This document shows, one piece after another, positions 2,447 through 63,302 of a stretch of 64,000 nt of DNA. Within the stretch, counting starts at the first letter, position 1, and every line of letters starts with the position of its first letter. The translations under genes and the position numbers were made by a program. Source of the DNA: Escherichia phage vB_EcoS_MM-1. The stretch is from sequence record PV577657. One strand, given 5' to 3'. The notes beneath the pieces are model-generated. The model worked only from the letters and a program-made list of their open reading frames with translations. It was not told the origin of the DNA and ran no database searches.

Positions 2447-2838
2447 ATGGAACAAGTATATTGGCGTCAGATTGACCCTAGTTTGGTGAAACGTGCGGAG
2501 AAGCTGCTACAACGTTGGTTGTGGGTAAGACAAGCCTCCTTCACTTTTCCGAGCAGCAAACAGATGATCCCTGTATTGGTGTTTTCCTATCCGGCTACGC
2601 CGGGGAATGGGAATTGGATTGGAATGAATTGTCTGCTATGGGTTTAATTGTTGCCCTAAATTTCTCTTTGTTCCATCCACGTGGGTTGGCCATACGTCGT
2701 GTGCCGGGTGATGGTTGTTCGCCCCATTTTTTACAGGTGGAAGATGATATTTGGGAGTACACTCCAGATATTCTCGCAGAAGCTAAAGAACAATTAAATC
2801 GTGTTGGGATTTATGTTCCAGGCCTAAATGATGAATGA
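2447..2838 (+). pseudogene. paralog B of the duplicated pair, interrupted by an apparent 1-nt frameshift (frame of 2447 switches to frame of 2515 near 2545-2551)
   Basis: Strong RBS AAGGAGG at 2434-2440 and ATG at 2447; the conserved domain continues in the 2515..2838 frame; adding one T to the T4 run at 2545-2548 restores ...SFTF-SEQQTDDPCIG, aligning with paralog A ISFAFKDDIDEAPCIG. Confidence 0.5.
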
Positions 2839-2906
2839 TTTTTATTAGCTGAAATTTGTAATCCGGGCTATTAGTGCTCGGATTATTACATAATCTTTTC
2901 AGTCGA

Positions 2907-2960
2907 TTGACAGTCAAAATAAATTGTCGTTGACAATTTGGATGGATTATGTAATAATAT
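2907..2960 (+). promoter_or_regulatory. promoter with two operator-like inverted repeats upstream of the HNH gene
   Basis: TTGACaGTCAA (2907-2917) and ATTGTC-gtt-GACAAT (2923-2937); -35 TTGACA 2931-2936, -10 TAATAT 2955-2960. Confidence 0.45.
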
Positions 2961-2977
2961 ATGTATTGGAGGTGAGG

Positions 2978-3430
2978 ATGTCATTCACACAGCAAGAACT
3001 TTTAGATAACTTCCGATATGAAGATGGTAAGTTATTTAGAACTACAGGAAGAAATGCAGGGAAAGAATGTTGTGTTTCTACAGGTAACGGATATTATCGT
3101 ATATCTCTAGGGAATAGGACTATGCTTCGGCATAGAGCAATATTTTTAATGCATCATGGATACTTACCTGATTTAGTAGATCATGTGAATACTATAAAAG
3201 GTGATGATCGTATTGAAAATCTTAGAGAGCAGACAGTATCCGGTAATCTAAGAAATATCAAATATAAGAAAGGAATGCATGTTTACCCTTCTGGTAGTAA
3301 GAACTGGCAAGTGGTATTTACTATTAACCGTAAACGTATAGTTAAAGGAACATATGACAACTATGAGGTTGCATGTTCTATGGCCAAGATGTTTAGAGGT
3401 CAATTATACGGTAGGGAATCAATCCAGTAA
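2978..3430 (+). CDS. HNH homing endonuclease
   Basis: RBS GGAGGTGAGG then ATG at 2978; motif HRAIFLMHHGYLPDLVDHVN...DDRIENL typical of phage HNH endonucleases. Confidence 0.8.
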   Translation: MSFTQQELLDNFRYEDGKLFRTTGRNAGKECCVSTGNGYYRISLGNRTMLRHRAIFLMHHGYLPDLVDHVNTIKGDDRIENLREQTVSGNLRNIKYKKGMHVYPSGSKNWQVVFTINRKRIVKGTYDNYEVACSMAKMFRGQLYGRESIQ

Positions 3431-3438
3431 AATTTCAT

Positions 3439-3468
3439 TTGCAAGGGAGTATTATTTTATAGTATAAT
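3439..3468 (+). promoter_or_regulatory. sigma70-type early promoter (T5-like)
   Basis: TTGCAA, 18-nt spacer, TATAAT (3463-3468), then ATTCCCATAAATGAGAGA, resembling the PN25 downstream box. Confidence 0.5.
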
Positions 3469-3498
3469 ATTCCCATAAATGAGAGACATTAGTAAAAA

Positions 3499-3528
3499 TT
3501 GATTTTGCTAATTTTTCTTGTTTACAAT
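3499..3528 (+). promoter_or_regulatory. possible second promoter
   Basis: TTGATT, 18-nt spacer, TACAAT. Confidence 0.35.
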
Positions 3529-3534
3529 CCGCGA

Positions 3535-3953
3535 TACGGAACAGTTAGGCTGCCCCATTAAGGGTTGTTTTAACTGTTACGTGTTAGTTTTTAAACAAAT
3601 AGTTAATAGAATACTTAGCGATCTACATCCCGTAGGAACCCTGGTAAGGCCTCGAAGCAACCTAGTGTGAGGTGGTTGTGAAGTGAGACGGGAAGAGTGA
3701 AAAACTCTGAGAAGTGATGACGTAAGGTATACTGCATCTAGTATGAGCTAGTACATGAAGCATTAGGTGAGCAAATCTGGCTTAGCGGCCATCCTCAAGG
3801 ATTTGTGCGGTATAGTGAAGCGGCAGTGTAGCGTGAAAGGGGAAGTTGCCACCCCCCTTCAGTATTTGCGATTAATTTGTTGAGAAATTGACAGTAACAG
3901 TTGTTCTATTCTTTCTGAATAGTCCTAAAGAAAACTTATTTCATTTCCAACAC
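3535..3953 (+). ncRNA. candidate structured untranslated leader or ncRNA (no ORF of 60 aa or more on either strand)
   Basis: About 420 nt between promoters and the RBS at 3954; purine/G-rich composition unlike the AT-rich flanks; hairpins GAGTgaaaaACTC, ATCCTcaAGGAT and GGGG-N11-CCCC. Confidence 0.3.
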
Positions 3954-3965
3954 AGGAGTATTGTT

Positions 3966-6752
3966 GTGTTCTCAATCCTACAAGGTCATGCAGGATTTCA
4001 TCGCGATTTAGCCACAGGCATTTGGCGAGAAGTTAAAGCAGAAGACTATCTTTTTGCTAAAAGATTTTCCTCAAAGCATCCTGAAGGTAAACCAGCTTCA
4101 ATGCCCTTCAAGTTTGATGTAATTGATGAAGTTGATCCTCAAACCCTAGTAGAAATGCTCCCTCTTATGAGACGTTTAACGTCTGACCCTCATATCGTTG
4201 CGGTACGAGGTCGATGTCTTGCACCCAAAAATAATGTGCGGCGTAAGAAGGGCAACTTTAATGTATCTAACCCAAGTCATATAATTGCAATGGACGTGGA
4301 TGGTATTGTAGATACAGGTGGTTGTAACAAGTTTGATCTTGTTGGCATGGCTCGACATATTATTAGAATGTTAAATAGTATTAGTGAGGATATGTTTCCT
4401 CTTGATGCAGGGTTTATTGCTCATGCATCGTCTTCGGCTGGGCTAAAACCAGGTATCCGAATGCACTTAATACTAGAATCTAATGTTAAAGTAACTCAGG
4501 GTCAAATCAAATTCTTATTTACATCTATCAATGAAAGTAGTAGACAAAAGTATGGCTTTGATATTGCCGACTTAGCTTATTACTCTTCCGTACAGCTCCA
4601 TTATTTTGCAGATCCGTTATTTACCGATGGTATAGTAGATCCGTTTAAGGCGGAGGGTGCTTCACGTCTGGTATTTGTTAAGGGTTCTAAAGTAAACTTA
4701 CCTAATAATCTGGTTGACTATGAAACAACTAGAGGTGAGTTTAAGGAGGAGTTTTACTCTTTACTCGATCAAATTAAAGGTAAAAAAGCTGCCTCCGATA
4801 AAGTAGAGGAAACTATCAGCGAACTAGAAGAAGCTGAGGATGGAGTGTATCTACGTATCATACCTAAACTCTATCACAGAGCTTTAGAGGATGGTGTTGA
4901 TTTTGCATGGCTAGAAAAAGAAATCCGTCCAGCCTTATCAGAATATATTGCAACCAAAGATAATAGTCGTAATATTCAAGATTACTTTAATAACGGTCGT
5001 AAACAGGCTCTGAAAGCATTTGTTAATAATTCTAAACGCGATATACCTGATGTTTTAAAAGGTATTCCACTTAAAAAGCTAGAAACTAACTCTCTAGAAA
5101 CTGATAACTTCTTGAAATTAAATACTGTACCACCAGAAGGTTATATGACTTTTGTAAAAGCAAGTCTAGGTACAGGTAAAACTACGGCGGTTGTGCGTTG
5201 GTTAGATTCAGGAGTTATTAAAGGTAATTTCTTAGCAATTACCAATACTCGAGCACTGGTATCTTCAAATGCTAAGAAATTTAGTGCAGGACAATATGAT
5301 AAGTCTGTAGATATGCTTAATTTTAAGCGTGGTGCTATTGACCGTATGTCCACAACTATTCACTCTTTGCATAAGTTCAAGAGTTTTATTGGTCAAATCG
5401 ATGCAATCTTTATAGATGAATGTGATGCTGTAATGAATGACCTATTATTCGCCCCGGTTGTTAAACAACGTCGTGAATGTATTCAGGTTCTTCGGGATAT
5501 TCTTGCAACTGCAAAAATCATTATATTATCTGATGGGGATATTAGTGCAGAAACAATTGAAGCATATGGTTCTTTAATTGAGTTTGATAAACCGGTTGCA
5601 TTTTATAATCATCACCGAAAAATGCTATCAAAAGCTCATGCCTACGAGTTCCCTGATGAATCCAGTATTTGGGTTGCACTTCAGACTTCTCTAGAGATGG
5701 GTGAGAAATCTATCCTAGTATCTGACTGTGGGCCGGATGAACTGAATGAGAAGGGCATGGCGTTGCGTCGTAATACGGGTGCGTTAGTTAAGGAAATCCA
5801 CTCAAACTCTACGTCTGATGTAGATATTCGACGTATTCTGGATTACACAACTAATGAGTTAATTGACCAACAAATTGATTGCTTATTATGTAGTCCATCC
5901 GTAACGAGTGGTGTTGACTTCAACTATTTTGATAACGTATTCGTTATTACTAGAACCAGTAACCAAGCGCCAAACATGCGTTTTCAAGCAATCAGGCGCG
6001 ACCGTGGTGCTCAGAACATTTATTATTTTATTGATAAATCTACGAGTGGATTCTCCGCAGGCTCTGAACAATATAATATTGATGAAGGTTGGCTGGAGTT
6101 AGCACAGCAATTATACGCACGTCGTAGGGAGCTGGAGTCTAGGAACTATACTAGTACTTTACGTTATTACTTGCTTGATCAGGGTGCAACTATTGATATT
6201 TTCAGTGAAAGCTGGGGAACTATCGAAGGTGCAGGTAAAGAGTATACAGAAGAGCGAATCAAAGCCATTTTGTATTCAACTCCTGATTATTGTGCTCCAC
6301 GCCATGCAGATGCATATGAAGCTAAACTACTTCTTGTTCGCTATTATCATCTTGAGTCTATTAAAGATGTAACAGTTGAGCATGTTGAGCAATACATTAA
6401 GGATAAACCGAATGATCGAGCGGCATTCTTCCATAAAATGCACGAGATGTTCTGGGAAGATATTAAGAAGTGTTCAAATGTCACTATCAAACCATTCATA
6501 GAAGCTCTGAAAGGCAAGAAGAAAGATTTCTTCCTTAAAACAGGTCAGAGTGCTAACCCAAAATATGCCAGAATGTATCTTGGTATGATGGGTATTGGCA
6601 AGGATATGAACACGGAGAATATTGTAGACTGGTACAGAACTTATTGTAAAATCGAGTGTATGCCAATTCCTTTCAAATTCATGACAGAGGAAGAGAAGGC
6701 TATGGCAGAAGAAGTACTGTCCGAACTTGGAGCAACTAATGAAGACGCATAA
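3966..6752 (+). CDS. large replication protein: AEP-primase-like N-domain fused to a P-loop helicase domain (possibly the replication-origin-binding type protein of T5-like phages)
   Basis: In-frame GTG at 3966 with AGGAG at 3954-3958 (track start TTG 3888 is less likely); DxD motif IIAMDVDG, GIRMHLIL, Walker A ASLGTGKTT, Walker B IFIDECD. Confidence 0.6.
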   Translation: MFSILQGHAGFHRDLATGIWREVKAEDYLFAKRFSSKHPEGKPASMPFKFDVIDEVDPQTLVEMLPLMRRLTSDPHIVAVRGRCLAPKNNVRRKKGNFNVSNPSHIIAMDVDGIVDTGGCNKFDLVGMARHIIRMLNSISEDMFPLDAGFIAHASSSAGLKPGIRMHLILESNVKVTQGQIKFLFTSINESSRQKYGFDIADLAYYSSVQLHYFADPLFTDGIVDPFKAEGASRLVFVKGSKVNLPNNLVDYETTRGEFKEEFYSLLDQIKGKKAASDKVEETISELEEAEDGVYLRIIPKLYHRALEDGVDFAWLEKEIRPALSEYIATKDNSRNIQDYFNNGRKQALKAFVNNSKRDIPDVLKGIPLKKLETNSLETDNFLKLNTVPPEGYMTFVKASLGTGKTTAVVRWLDSGVIKGNFLAITNTRALVSSNAKKFSAGQYDKSVDMLNFKRGAIDRMSTTIHSLHKFKSFIGQIDAIFIDECDAVMNDLLFAPVVKQRRECIQVLRDILATAKIIILSDGDISAETIEAYGSLIEFDKPVAFYNHHRKMLSKAHAYEFPDESSIWVALQTSLEMGEKSILVSDCGPDELNEKGMALRRNTGALVKEIHSNSTSDVDIRRILDYTTNELIDQQIDCLLCSPSVTSGVDFNYFDNVFVITRTSNQAPNMRFQAIRRDRGAQNIYYFIDKSTSGFSAGSEQYNIDEGWLELAQQLYARRRELESRNYTSTLRYYLLDQGATIDIFSESWGTIEGAGKEYTEERIKAILYSTPDYCAPRHADAYEAKLLLVRYYHLESIKDVTVEHVEQYIKDKPNDRAAFFHKMHEMFWEDIKKCSNVTIKPFIEALKGKKKDFFLKTGQSANPKYARMYLGMMGIGKDMNTENIVDWYRTYCKIECMPIPFKFMTEEEKAMAEEVLSELGATNEDA

Positions 6753-7257
6753 ACCAATGCCTCCTATGGCATTTATCCTAGAAAAGCTTAGGTATGACGA
6801 AAGTACTGGGGACTTAATTTGGTTATCTGGCCCAAGGAAGGGAAAGGTAGCGGGCTCCAAAATGAAAACTGGGAGACAGCTAGAGTTTATGATAAATGGG
6901 GGGCGGACAGCTTACTTAGCCCATAGAATAATCTGGTTTATAAAGACAGGTGAAGATCCTGGAGATAAAACTATTGACCATAAAGACGGTGATAGTTTAA
7001 ACAACTTGTGGGATAATTTACGTAAGGCTACCTATTCCGAAAATGGAAAGAATAAGAAGTGTTCTACTAATTCTACCGGATTCACTGGAGTTGTAAAACG
7101 AGGTAATAGGTATATGGCCTACGCTTACTGCGATGGAAAGCAACATATTTTTGGTAGACGAGATACCCCGGAAGAAGCCCATCAGCTATACCTTAGGGGA
7201 GTTAAAGAGCTGTTTGGTGAATTTAATCCCTCGGAGAGATATGACAGTGAAGAATAA
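6727..7257 (+). CDS. HNH homing endonuclease
   Basis: AYLAHRIIWFIKTGEDPGDKTIDHKDGDSLNNLWDNL; start overlaps the 3' end of the preceding gene. Confidence 0.8.
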   Translation: MEQLMKTHKPMPPMAFILEKLRYDESTGDLIWLSGPRKGKVAGSKMKTGRQLEFMINGGRTAYLAHRIIWFIKTGEDPGDKTIDHKDGDSLNNLWDNLRKATYSENGKNKKCSTNSTGFTGVVKRGNRYMAYAYCDGKQHIFGRRDTPEEAHQLYLRGVKELFGEFNPSERYDSEE

Positions 7258-58993: not shown

Positions 58994-59255
58994 ACTTATT
59001 TTATGAAATAAATTAATTGACTTTTATTTGTTAGTATGCATCGGAAAGATAGCAGACTAATAATTGCTAGAATGATAATCATGCTGGTGGATTGTAACGA
59101 CCTGAATTATTAGCAGACTATTAATCACGGAAAAATCTCATTAGCCAACTAACTATTTCATGATATATAATATACATATAAATTAATGAGAAATAATAAC
59201 TATAAGAAATCATCTAGCTAAGTGAGAACCACTATCATTTAAGTTATACACAAAG

Positions 59256-59264
59256 TTATCCACA
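59256..59264 (+). promoter_or_regulatory. consensus DnaA box
   Basis: TTATCCACA exact 9-mer. Confidence 0.5.
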
Positions 59265-59333
59265 GCACTTTTTGACTTGACACGATAGGCGGCGATATAA
59301 GGACTTTTACACAGACTTATCTACAGGTTATTC

Positions 59334-63219: not shown

Positions 63220-63302
63220 TGTGGATAAGTCTGTTAATAACACCCCAAAATGGCTAGGATTCTGTCAAGTCAAATCGTGCTGTTAATAAGTCTGTGGATA
63301 AC
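63220..63302. promoter_or_regulatory. two consensus DnaA boxes within an inverted motif pair
   Basis: TGTGGATAA at 63220-63228 and 63294-63302, each linked to GTCTGTTAATAA. Confidence 0.5.

What the first reader, a model, noticed from the sequence alone, without database searches (positions are those of the whole stretch)
3431..3965. About 500-nt promoter-fed, purine-rich untranslated region upstream of the giant replication gene
Two early-type promoters (-10 elements at 3463 and 3523) sit more than 400 nt upstream of the first credible RBS/start (AGGAG 3954, GTG 3966). The intervening sequence contains no ORF of 60 aa or more on either strand, is markedly G/purine-rich against an AT-rich genome, and has several stable hairpins. 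This looks like a structured leader (translational control or RNA thermosensor) or an independent ncRNA; an intron-like origin next to the HNH gene was considered and not supported.
Basis: seen in the sequence. Interest (0 to 1): 0.5.

Follow-up and report, generated by a model that had tools for sequence, protein, structure and literature searches.

The report
Conserved large structured RNA in T5-like phages
The 500-nt gap in front of the replication helicase gene of this T5-like phage encodes a previously undescribed, roughly 375-nt, intricately folded RNA whose fold is kept by compensatory mutations across several phage genera; its function is unknown, and it lies near where T5's never-pinpointed replication origin was mapped.

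Summary
The window is a T5-like phage (Tequintavirus). Positions 3431-3965 contain two tandem sigma-70 promoters, no conserved ORF and a G-rich core, upstream of the origin-binding-protein (OBP) helicase gene (GTG 3966).

The region is one closed, multi-helix RNA spanning about 3536-3910. An imperfect long-range duplex (3572-3616 with 3860-3902) encloses a branched core (3618-3834). That core carries an invariant hairpin, GGC-UUAGCG-GCC.

On 37 homologs from Tequintavirus, Epseptimavirus, Sugarlandvirus, Myunavirus and Hongcheonvirus:
- 97% of cells pair.
- 31 of 65 pairs show compensatory double changes, against 9-15 in slid controls.
- There are 442 G.U cells against 9 A.C cells, so the folded strand is the transcribed one.

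Two alleles of the core are only about 40% identical but have the same length and helices. No Rfam family matches, and I found no host or plasmid homolog and no paper describing it.

Function is inferred, not shown. My best guess is a stable RNA module released from the early transcript by RNase III and acting as an RNA. The rivals are a purely cis-acting leader and an origin or primer RNA. Thermosensor and intron readings are not supported.

The parts
3439..3468 (+). Promoter P1 (-35 TTGCAA 3439-3444, -10 TATAAT 3463-3468). The -35 and spacer come from the HNH cassette. Homology to phages without the HNH gene resumes at 3463.
   Evidence: Consensus scan. The CTTGCAAT..TATAATAT arrangement is conserved across genera. 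Annotated as a promoter in the T5 and AKFV33 records. Junction position.
3499..3528 (+). Promoter P2 (-35 TTGATT, 18-nt spacer, -10 TACAAT). The predicted transcription start, about 3534-3536, lies at the start of the most conserved block.
   Evidence: Consensus scan, 9/12. The position is conserved, with a TACAAT or GCTAAT -10, in Markadamsvirinae and in the Pectobacterium phages. The start site is inferred, not mapped.
3534..3558 (+). Most conserved block, AUACGGAACAGUUAGGCUGCCCCAU. It contains the 5' strand of helix H1 (GGAAC 3538-3542).
   Evidence: Nearly all positions are invariant in 37 sequences from five genera.
3536..3910 (+). The whole structured RNA module, about 375 nt. The model derived from the consensus has 96 base pairs in this span, plus 5 more in the ribosome-binding-site (SD)/start hairpin.
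   Evidence: RNAalifold and pair counts.
3538..3542 (+). H1 5' strand, GGAAC. It pairs with GUUCU 3903-3907 and closes the whole module.
   Evidence: 98% of cells pair, but the helix is nearly invariant, so it has no covariation support within this set (helix 1).
3548..3569 (+). 5' side hairpin, GGCUGCCC with GGGUUGUU. It is rich in conserved G.U pairs.
   Evidence: helix 2. The hairpin is shorter or absent in My1 and DU_PP_V.
3572..3616 (+). 5' arm of the long-range closing duplex (AACUGUUAC..GUUAGUUUUUAAACAAAUAGUU..GAAUACU).
   Evidence: Helices 3-5 carry 10 pairs with compensatory changes, for example G:C to A:U at A4 columns 56/398. About 38 bp in the type-A consensus fold and duplexfold; the cross-genus consensus retains 21 bp. 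Reported as inverted repeats I1 and I5.
3860..3902 (+). 3' arm of the closing duplex.
   Evidence: Same evidence as for the 5' arm.
3618..3834 (+). Branched core domain. It is closed by GCG/CUACAU (3618-3628) pairing with GUGUAG/CGU (3826-3834). Sub-helices: 3629-33 x 3688-92; 3651-54 x 3684-87; 3657-62 x 3674-79; 3694-98 x 3704-08; 3728-34 x 3808-14; 3735-42 x 3762-69.
   Evidence: The closing helix reads CUACA/UGUAG, CUGCG/CGCAG, CUGUG/CACAG or CUAGA/UCUAG in different phages. In the core, 30 of 54 pairs have compensatory changes, against 6-16 in slid controls.
3771..3806 (+). UUAGCG module. An 8-bp stem (3771-78 x 3799-3806) and an asymmetric 3' internal loop lead to the hairpin GGCU-UAGC-GGCC (3779-3790). 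The UUAGCG sequence (3782-3787) is invariant.
   Evidence: Seven of 8 stem pairs covary. CUUAGCGG is invariant in all 37 sequences, and My1 has GAC/GUC in place of GGC/GCC. Covariance model R1 scores 78 bits here. It is the only such hairpin in the 64-kb window.
3837..3859 (+). 3' side hairpin, AAGGGG-loop-CCCCUU. The T5 allele has AUAUGA..UCAUAU at the same place.
   Evidence: Compensatory replacement between alleles.
3906..3922 (+). Small conserved hairpin, CUAUUC-UUUCU-GAAUAG. It overlaps the H1 3' strand by 2 nt and has no U-tract after it, so it is not called as a terminator.
   Evidence: Read from the sequence. Sugarland has CUAUC..GAUAG at this position. No terminator was called in 2700-4300 apart from one at 2706.
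3949..3970 (+). Translation-start region of the OBP gene: AACAC (3949-53) pairs with GUGUU (3966-70), the AGGAG ribosome-binding site (3954-58) sits in the loop, and the GTG start is at 3966.
   Evidence: helix 12. Covariation is weak: 2 sequences with a double change and 7 with a one-sided change.
3966..6752 (+). Downstream gene (context): a 928-aa superfamily-2 helicase annotated as 'replication origin binding protein'. The first 390 residues match no family.
   Evidence: Pfam Herpes_ori_bp at residues 394-533. NCBIfam CyRepA1 at 393-722. PHROG 3712. PDB matches to herpesvirus origin-binding proteins cover residues 388-532 only.
2978..3430 (+). Upstream gene (context): a free-standing HNH homing endonuclease cassette. 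It is not part of the RNA.
   Evidence: Pfam HNH_3. Absent from T5, EPS7, DT57C and most relatives.

Best explanation
The region encodes a previously undescribed, evolutionarily conserved structured RNA of about 375 nt (3536-3910, + strand). Host RNA polymerase transcribes it from two tandem early promoters (P1, P2) as the first part of the transcript that continues into the OBP helicase gene.

The RNA folds into a closed module. A terminal helix and an imperfect long-range duplex (about 38 bp in this phage's allele) bring the two ends together. They enclose a branched, purine-rich core whose loops include the invariant UUAGCG hairpin.

Proposed mechanism (inferred):
- The long duplex is a processing stem cut by host RNase III.
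- The cut releases a stable RNA module and leaves an OBP mRNA with a short, defined leader.
- The module then works as an RNA, with its invariant loops binding a protein or another nucleic acid. It probably acts in the early/replication programme of the phage.

Shown here: non-coding status, the folded strand, the helices and their covariation, promoter conservation, the absence of a terminator, and cassette-like replacement of the core between lineages.

Inferred only: transcription start sites, RNase III processing, RNA stability, and any trans-acting function.
For: Identity and distribution:
- The window is a Tequintavirus (100% identical to phage MM-2).
- A gap of 500-600 nt lies upstream of the OBP gene in each Tequintavirus, Epseptimavirus, Sugarlandvirus, Myunavirus and Hongcheonvirus genome examined.

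Structure, on 37 sequences (alignment A4):
- 65 consensus pairs, 97.3% of cells paired (87% in shuffles, 37-48% with slid partners).
- 31 pairs with changes on both sides (9-15 in slid controls).
- Covariation score 0.36 against 0.04-0.10 in slid controls, with 0 of 500 shuffles reaching it.
- In the core domain, 30 of 54 pairs are compensatory.
- 442 G.U cells against 9 A.C cells, so the folded strand is the one transcribed from P1 and P2.

Non-coding: the small ORFs are not conserved.

Invariant single-stranded or loop blocks (AUACGGAACAGU..GGCUGC, CUUAGCGG) argue for specific contacts.

The closing duplex is long enough for RNase III: about 38 bp in this allele's fold (21 bp in the cross-genus consensus).

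Allele replacement: the window and T5 alleles are 100% identical over the first 55 nt and 91% at the 3' end. They are only 34-57% identical in the arms and 40% in the core, yet they keep the same length and helices.

Separate transcription units in relatives (homology not proven):
- Proteus phage Stubb has perfect consensus promoters on both sides of its ~700-nt noncoding region.
- Aeromonas phages have a ~1.25-kb structured region with two UUAGCG-loop hairpins. By inspection it ends in a conserved hairpin followed by a U-tract, about 95 nt before the OBP gene.
Against: - No experimental data on transcripts, RNA ends, processing or stability were available, and I found no paper on this region.
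- In this phage nothing separates the RNA from the OBP gene: no terminator and no internal promoter. A purely cis role is therefore equally compatible with the local anatomy.
- Homology to the Proteus, Aeromonas, Providencia and Vibrio regions is not established. nhmmer and a covariance model of the UUAGCG module give no significant hits there. Those loci can only count as analogies.
- The consensus structures were predicted from the same alignments on which the pairs were counted, which inflates the contrast with slid controls.
- Many of the A-versus-B differences are one ancient event inherited by many sequences.
- Helix H1 is invariant, so covariation does not test it.
Confidence: 0.5

Rival explanations
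1. Purely cis-acting leader. The fold exists only to control the OBP mRNA. It could set the mRNA's 5' end and half-life, couple translation to binding of a phage protein (autoregulation by OBP or another early protein), or bind a metabolite as an unusually large riboswitch. It would have no role once detached from the mRNA.
For: - It always lies directly upstream of the OBP gene.
- There is no terminator or promoter between it and the gene in the T5 group.
- The H1 3' strand overlaps a conserved hairpin (3906-3922).
- The start codon sits in a small conserved helix with the ribosome-binding site in its loop (helix 12).
Against: - 375 nt with about 15 conserved helices is far more than known translational operators or RNase III sites need.
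- The structure ends about 60 nt before the ribosome-binding site and does not mask it.
- No expression platform is visible, neither a terminator/antiterminator nor an anti-Shine-Dalgarno sequence.
- No known aptamer matches.
- In Proteus phage Stubb the OBP gene has its own perfect promoter downstream of the noncoding region, though homology is unproven.
Confidence: 0.25
2. Origin-associated RNA. Transcription from P1 and P2 activates the primary replication origin of the phage. The structured transcript would serve as primer or R-loop former, as ColE1 RNA II does, or as a loading platform for the adjacent helicase.
For: - In T5 the element lies at 59.0-59.5 kb of 121.75 kb, about 48.5% of the genome. 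T5 replication origins were placed near the centre of the molecule by older work, as summarised in bioRxiv 10.1101/866236.
- It adjoins the presumed initiator helicase.
- Tandem strong promoters feed into it, as at the T7 primary origin (from my own knowledge).
- The transcript is G-rich, which favours RNA-DNA hybrids.
- Structure is conserved while sequence is free to vary, as in RNA II of ColE1-type plasmids (from my own knowledge).
Against: - No iterons and no DnaA boxes occur at the locus.
- No antisense promoter was found.
- A tightly self-paired RNA is a poor R-loop former.
- The 'OBP' name rests only on helicase-domain similarity.
- The central position and the synteny could be coincidence, because T5-like genomes are collinear.
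- The Aeromonas counterpart appears to terminate before the gene (by inspection).
Confidence: 0.15
3. DNA-level element. The inverted repeats would act in single-stranded or cruciform DNA, for example as a primosome or primase entry site, and not in RNA.
For: AT-rich inverted repeats flank the core. The element lies next to a replication gene.
Against: - 20% of paired cells are G.U (G.T in DNA) on the + strand only, with almost no A.C cells. This is the signature of an RNA, or at least of a single-strand-specific fold.
- A 375-nt multi-branch ssDNA fold has no precedent that I know of.
- The element sits directly downstream of conserved promoters facing into it.
Confidence: 0.03
4. No function: spacer DNA, or a decayed gene, whose apparent structure is an artefact of alignment.
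For: Single-sequence folding energy is only marginally below shuffles.
Against: - Length is conserved.
- Sequence blocks are invariant across genera.
- About 60 pairs show compensatory changes, and every shuffle and slid control is beaten.
- No ORF is conserved.
Confidence: 0.02

Closest known systems
Large 'ornate' bacterial and phage ncRNAs of unknown function (GOLLD, ROOL, OLE, raiA)
   Same: - Several hundred nucleotides long.
- Many helices supported by covariation, interspersed with invariant nucleotides.
- Phage-associated, as GOLLD and ROOL are.
- No known function.
- Purine-rich junctions.
The class is described in PMC12286853.
   Different: - No sequence or structure homology: no Rfam match.
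- Smaller than GOLLD and ROOL.
- Not next to tRNA genes; it is fused to the 5' end of a replication-gene transcript.
- Restricted, as far as shown, to T5-like phages of enterobacteria.
- Oligomerisation is untested.
ColE1 RNA II (plasmid replication primer)
   Same: A structured RNA of about 400-550 nt, driven by a promoter and placed at a replication locus. Its secondary structure is conserved while its sequence diverges between lineages.
   Different: No antisense RNA I promoter was found. No origin has been mapped immediately downstream, because a protein gene follows. R-loop formation and RNase H cleavage are untested.
RNase III processing stems (T7 early mRNA sites, the lambda N leader, stems flanking pre-rRNA)
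   Same: Long-range pairing of sequences on either side of a structured RNA gives an imperfect duplex (about 38 bp in this allele's fold), upstream of a phage early gene.
   Different: T7 and lambda sites are simple hairpins of 50-60 nt. Here the stem encloses a conserved 215-nt branched domain, which resembles rRNA precursors more than mRNA processing sites. Cleavage is untested.
phi29 pRNA (phage-encoded RNA subunit of a molecular machine)
   Same: A phage-encoded, early-transcribed, structured RNA whose helices covary among related phages while its loops are conserved.
   Different: pRNA is about 120-174 nt, works in DNA packaging and lies near the genome end. There is no homology, and no evidence here for binding to a machine.
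RNA thermometers and riboswitch leaders
   Same: The element lies in the 5' untranslated region of an mRNA.
   Different: There is no melting hairpin that masks the ribosome-binding site, no known aptamer and no expression platform. The element is several times larger than either class.

Membership tests
Any Rfam 15 family (4227 models, including riboswitches, 6S, RNase P, tmRNA, group I/II introns, GOLLD, ROOL, OLE, raiA, HEARO) | Covariance-model score at or above the family's gathering threshold | tested here: not met
   The best hits in 2800-4600 are chance-level snoRNA and miRNA matches (E = 0.4-6.5, 17-20 bits against thresholds of 30-94). Ten homologous loci gave nothing relevant. No hit reaches a gathering score anywhere in the window.
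tRNA / tmRNA | Cloverleaf or tRNA-like domain detectable by ARAGORN | tested here: not met
   ARAGORN finds 0 genes in the whole window.
RNA thermometer | Short, imperfect hairpin that base-pairs with the ribosome-binding site and/or start codon and melts with temperature | tested here: not met
   The conserved fold (3536-3910) ends about 45 nt before the AGGAG site. The only local helix (3949-53 with 3966-70) leaves that site in the loop. Temperature response cannot be tested here.
Riboswitch | Conserved aptamer coupled to an expression platform (terminator/antiterminator, or sequestration of the ribosome-binding site) | tested here: not met
   No known aptamer matches. No terminator lies between the RNA and the gene. 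No alternative pairing with the ribosome-binding site appears in the consensus model.
Riboswitch | Specific ligand binding | not testable with these tools
   Needs in-line probing or ITC.
Group I / group II intron (with HNH homing endonuclease) | Catalytic core, and insertion within a gene with exon continuity | tested here: not met
   No intron model matches. The element lies between genes. The HNH ORF lies outside it and is absent from most relatives that keep the RNA.
ColE1 RNA II-type primer | Structured RNA, driven by a promoter, at a replication locus | tested here: met
   Promoters P1 and P2. Covarying fold. Adjacent to the presumed initiator helicase.
ColE1 RNA II-type primer | Antisense regulator (RNA I) transcribed from the opposite strand | tested here: not met
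   No minus-strand promoter-like site lies within 3470-3965.
ColE1 RNA II-type primer | Persistent RNA-DNA hybrid cut by RNase H at the origin | not testable with these tools
   Needs DRIP or primer-extension mapping during infection.
RNase III substrate | About 20 bp or more of nearly continuous double-stranded RNA | tested here: met
   3572-3616 pairs with 3860-3902: about 38 bp with small interruptions in this allele's fold, 21 bp in the cross-genus consensus. Covariation is found in helices 3-5.
RNase III substrate | Cleavage in vivo or in vitro | not testable with these tools
   Needs a comparison of rnc mutant and wild-type hosts, or an in-vitro assay.
6S RNA | Rod of about 180 nt with a large central bubble that mimics an open promoter | tested here: not met
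   The centre is a multi-branch domain of at least 8 helices, not a bubble. No 6S model matches.
One RNA family across all Demerecviridae (Providencia, Proteus, Aeromonas and Vibrio T5-like phages) | Significant sequence or structure similarity to the T5-group RNA | tested here: inconclusive
   All of them have noncoding regions of roughly 370-1600 nt upstream of the OBP gene, several of them visibly structured. Providencia, Proteus and Aeromonas also have a UUAGCG-loop hairpin. nhmmer gives E = 6-8. Covariance model R1 gives only 9 bits (E = 9) in Providencia and nothing elsewhere.

The most novel reading that the evidence does not exclude
The RNA is the missing cis/trans component of T5 replication initiation. 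It would be a structured 'origin RNA', made from tandem early promoters next to the initiator helicase at the genome centre, that primes or organises the first round of replication. The two divergent core alleles would act as replicon-specificity determinants, as the RNA I/RNA II loops do in ColE1 plasmids. A neighbouring reading with similar weight is that it is a new class of ornate phage RNA that forms an RNA-protein or RNA-only assembly, as ROOL and GOLLD do.
Probability: 0.15. Interest if true: 0.9.

Novelty: new variant of a known kind. Interest (0 to 1): 0.7.

Why it matters
T5 is a classical model phage, and T5-like phages are widely used for biocontrol and in defence-system studies. 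This locus is nevertheless left blank, or filled with spurious 38-50-aa 'hypothetical proteins', in hundreds of deposited genomes.

A ~375-nt RNA whose fold is held by dozens of compensatory changes across five genera is very unlikely to be functionless. That places it among the few large structured RNAs known in phages.

It sits beside the presumed initiator helicase, close to where T5's origin was mapped by electron microscopy but never defined at sequence level. This gives a concrete, mutable candidate for studying T5 replication initiation and early gene control.

The cassette-like exchange of two very different core alleles between otherwise near-identical genomes suggests specificity or conflict. 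That pattern is typical of elements that interact with a partner.

Practically, the family merits an Rfam entry and corrected genome annotation.

Tried and rejected
1. Known RNA families. Rfam with permissive E-values on the locus, on 10 homologous loci and on the whole window, plus ARAGORN: nothing.
2. Thermodynamic stability of single sequences. z is only -1.9, -2.2 and -1.4, and does not discriminate between strands. I abandoned this in favour of covariation.
3. Local hairpin AACAGUU/AACUGUU (3536-47 with 3571-82, repeat I2). Rejected as the conserved pairing: type-B phages would carry a C.A mismatch there, whereas the long-range partner 3894-3902 changes in step. It may still be a co-transcriptional intermediate.
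4. The type-A-only fold of the UUAGCG region. Rejected in favour of the family-wide helix 9/10 model.
5. Coding potential. The small ORFs are not conserved and have no Pfam match.
6. Origin hallmarks. No iterons and no DnaA boxes at the locus.
7. Host or plasmid ancestry. No blastn match in 5,426 E. coli genomes or 72,556 plasmids.
8. Extension to distant genera. nhmmer, covariance model R1 and duplexfold of the ends (z about 0 for Proteus, Aeromonas and Vibrio) gave no significant support.
9. Metagenome pattern scan. Of the 8 matches with a downstream UUAGCGG motif, 5 were T5- or Sugarland-like; L087 was checked and rejected, and L138 and L168 looked like chance matches.
10. A pseudoknot between the UUAGCG loop and UGCUAA in the P1-P2 spacer. 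Not conserved in Sugarland, so dropped.
11. Similarity of the 5' block to the herpesvirus UL9 box (GTTCGCAC). Not conserved in T5 itself, and the OBP similarity is limited to the helicase domain, so dropped.
12. Box C/D or kink-turn reading of CUGA..UGAUGA. The Rfam hit is at chance level, so it was left as an observation only.
13. Full-length covariance model. Not attempted, because a model of about 375 positions exceeds the tool's calibration limit.
14. Literature. Six searches found no description of this RNA.
Full report
WHAT THE WINDOW IS

The 801 bases around the finding are 100% identical to Escherichia phage vB_EcoS_MM-2 and 96-99% identical to many other T5-like phages (Demerecviridae, Tequintavirus). 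The finding is the gap between two genes. Upstream is a free-standing HNH endonuclease gene (2978-3430; Pfam HNH_3). Downstream is the 928-aa 'replication origin binding protein' (OBP; GTG 3966 to 6752). OBP is a superfamily-2 helicase whose only detectable similarity is in the helicase core, to herpesvirus origin-binding proteins and to CyRepA1 plasmid replication proteins. Its first 390 residues match nothing.

CHECKING THE OBSERVATION

- Both promoter-like sites exist: P1 at 3439-3468 and P2 at 3499-3528.
- The AGGAG/GTG start at 3954/3966 is the annotated one.
- No ORF longer than 50 aa lies in the gap.
- The core 3585-3885 is G-rich: 27.9% G (98th percentile of the window), 57.5% purine (94th) and 44.5% GC (93rd).

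Two caveats apply. The promoter scan as a whole is not enriched over shuffles (7 found, 5.5 expected), so the case for P1 and P2 rests on conservation and on earlier annotation. Single-sequence folding energies are only marginally better than shuffles on either strand.

THE GAP IS CONSERVED AND THE HNH GENE IS NOT PART OF IT

Relatives without the HNH gene rejoin the window at 3463, inside P1. T5, EPS7, oselot, AKFV33, TrudiGerster, DT57C, GEC_vB_N3, S132, Klebsiella phage Sugarland and Pectobacterium phages My1 and DU_PP_V all have a gap of 500-600 nt at the same place. The two small 'hypothetical proteins' annotated inside the gap in MM-2 are not conserved, even among 91%-identical relatives.

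IT IS A STRUCTURED RNA

Aligning the gap shows an unusual pattern. The first ~55 nt after P2 and the last ~100 nt are nearly identical between the window and T5, but the ~310 nt in between are only 34-57% identical. The length is the same, and islands such as GGCUUAGCGGCC are invariant. The differences are compensatory.

Whole module, 37 distinct sequences from five genera (alignment A4):
- RNAalifold predicts 65 pairs, of which 31 have changes on both sides that keep the pair.
- An independent count gives 97.3% of cells paired. The figure is 87.3% after shuffling partners among sequences and 37-48% when partners are slid by 1-3 columns.
- The covariation score is 0.36 against 0.04-0.10 in slid controls, and 0 of 500 shuffles reach the observed values.

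Examples:
- The helix closing the core reads CUACA/UGUAG in the window, CUGCG/CGCAG in closely related type-A phages and EPS7, CUGUG/CACAG in T5 and CUAGA/UCUAG in Sugarland.
- The long-range helix AACUGUUAC/GUAACAGUU becomes AACUAUUAC/GUAAUAGUU in type-B phages.

Core domain alone (type-A phages plus DU_PP_V, My1 and Sugarland): 54 pairs, 30 of them compensatory, against 6-16 in slid controls.

Strand: 442 paired cells are G.U and only 9 are A.C. The fold therefore belongs to the + strand, the strand transcribed from P1 and P2. On the other strand only 77% of cells would pair.

Caveats:
- The structures were predicted from the same alignments that were then counted.
- Much of the A-versus-B signal is one old event shared by many sequences.
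- However, independent changes occur within type A (CCCGU/ACGGG to CCCAU/AUGGG; AGAG/CUCU to GGAG/CUCC) and in three other genera.

ANATOMY IN WINDOW COORDINATES

- H1: GGAAC 3538-42 pairs with GUUCU 3903-07. It is invariant, so covariation does not test it.
- 5' side hairpin: 3548-69.
- Closing duplex: 3572-3616 with 3860-3902, about 38 bp in four segments in the type-A fold.
- Core: 3618-3834, closed by 3618-28 with 3826-34. It contains a three-helix arm (3629-3692), a small hairpin (3694-3708), a purine-rich joining strand (GAGAAGUGAUGACGUAAGG) and a second arm (3728-3814). That second arm branches into hairpin 3735-69 and the UUAGCG module (3771-3806).
- 3' side hairpin: 3837-59.

Downstream come a small conserved hairpin (3906-22, with no U-tract), then the AGGAG ribosome-binding site and the GTG start. 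No terminator or promoter separates the RNA from the gene.

The most conserved nucleotides are the first 25 of the predicted P2 transcript (AUACGGAACAGUU.GGCUGCCCCAU) and CUUAGCGG.

IS IT KNOWN?

- No Rfam 15 family matches the locus, ten homologous loci or the rest of the window.
- There is no tRNA or tmRNA.
- Nothing similar exists in 5,426 E. coli genomes or 72,556 plasmids.
- Six full-text literature searches found no description.

HOW FAR DOES IT EXTEND?

All more distant T5-like phages examined also have a long noncoding region before the OBP gene.
- Providencia: about 710 nt, with a ~20-bp long-range duplex and a CCACCUGC-UUAGCG-GCG...AGGUGG module of the same geometry.
- Proteus phage Stubb: about 700 nt, flanked by two perfect 12/12 promoters.
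- Aeromonas: about 1.25 kb, with many compensatory hairpins between two phages that are 62% identical. It has two UUAGCG-loop hairpins and, by inspection, a conserved hairpin plus U-tract before the OBP gene. The scan tool did not call that terminator because its loop is too long.
- Vibrio: about 370-1100 nt.

Homology of these regions to the T5-group RNA is not established. nhmmer gives E = 6-8 and the covariance model gives 9 bits at best. I treat them as suggestive only.

HOW IT PROBABLY WORKS

Shown: a conserved, non-coding, + strand RNA fold. It has specific invariant loops, lies directly downstream of conserved tandem promoters and is co-linear with the OBP gene.

Inferred, and my best guess (confidence about 0.5): the long closing duplex is an RNase III processing stem of the kind that flanks pre-rRNA. 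It would release a stable module that acts as an RNA and leave the OBP mRNA with a short leader.

Arguments for a role beyond simple leader control:
- The size and number of conserved helices.
- The invariant loops.
- The cassette-like exchange of two core alleles between otherwise near-identical genomes.
- The apparently autonomous units in Proteus and Aeromonas phages.

Rivals:
- A purely cis-acting leader (0.25). It fits the local anatomy equally well.
- An origin-associated RNA (0.15). In T5 the element lies at 48.5% of the genome, and T5 origins were mapped near the centre of the molecule (bioRxiv 10.1101/866236). It adjoins the presumed initiator and is fed by tandem strong promoters. 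Against this, there are no iterons, DnaA boxes or antisense promoter, and a tightly folded RNA is a poor R-loop former.
- A DNA-level element (0.03), disfavoured by the G.U asymmetry.
- No function (0.02), contradicted by the covariation.

The thermosensor, riboswitch, intron and 6S readings each fail a defining feature (see the membership table).

VERDICT

The element is best described as a new family of large structured phage RNA of unknown function, closest in kind to the ornate RNAs GOLLD and ROOL and, by position, to primer or leader RNAs. Interest is 0.7. The structure is solid, but the function is open and needs experiments.

Noticed in passing
L008 (DT57C) about 660-760; same place in DT571/2, SP3, phC17, vB_EcoS-26175I and a S.Hadar fragment; corresponds to window ~3517: A ~97-nt insertion between P1 and P2, flanked by a TTTTTCTT direct repeat, is present in at least six T5-like records. 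It may be a small mobile element or an extra RNA hairpin.
   Followed up: no
window 2978-3468: The HNH endonuclease gene is a free-standing cassette. Its right end lies inside promoter P1: homology to HNH-less phages resumes at 3463, and the cassette supplies its own -35. It occurs in phages with either core allele, for example the window (type A) and AKFV33 and S132 (type B).
   Followed up: partly
window 3432-3456 and 3938-3962: A 25-nt direct repeat, 76% identical. The 3' flank of the HNH cassette resembles the type-A sequence just upstream of the OBP start. This may be a trace of where the cassette came from.
   Followed up: no
window 3583-3893 compared with T5 (L002): A sharp mosaic boundary. 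Identity to T5 is 100% over the first 55 nt of the RNA and 91% at its 3' end, but 34-57% in the arms and 40% in the core. The window's allele is closer to Pectobacterium phage DU_PP_V (50%) than to T5. Of 445 matching phage records, 163 carry the window's type.
   Followed up: partly
L004 (oselot) 1542-1572: A triplicated ATTTTGCTA unit lies between P1 and P2 and is annotated as a repeat_region. Other phages have one copy.
   Followed up: no
window 59244-59313 (+) and 63220-63301 (-): A cluster of exact DnaA-box consensus sites (TTATCCACA and variants). This fits the DnaA-box arrays described for the T5 terminal-repeat injection-stop region in bioRxiv 10.1101/866236.
   Followed up: no
window 3706-3720; L059 about 1745-1765: A CUGA...UGAUGA (box C/D-like, possible kink-turn) motif lies in the purine-rich joining strand. 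A UGAUGA..CUGA motif also occurs in the Vibrio phage noncoding region. The Rfam C/D-box hits are at chance level.
   Followed up: no
phage records OR848287.1 ('Listeria phage LM 4-14-1') and 'Campylobacter' entries: Short records labelled as Listeria or Campylobacter phages match this T5-like locus at about 97-98% identity.
   Followed up: no
window 3518-3670 and 3767-3883: Two 'hypothetical protein' CDSs annotated in PV577658 (50 and 38 aa) lie inside the RNA. They are not conserved and are almost certainly spurious gene calls. Sugarland, GEC_vB_N3 and Vibrio phage D360 carry similar calls.
   Followed up: yes
window 6727-7257: A second HNH endonuclease gene directly follows, and slightly overlaps, the OBP gene in this phage.
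   Followed up: no
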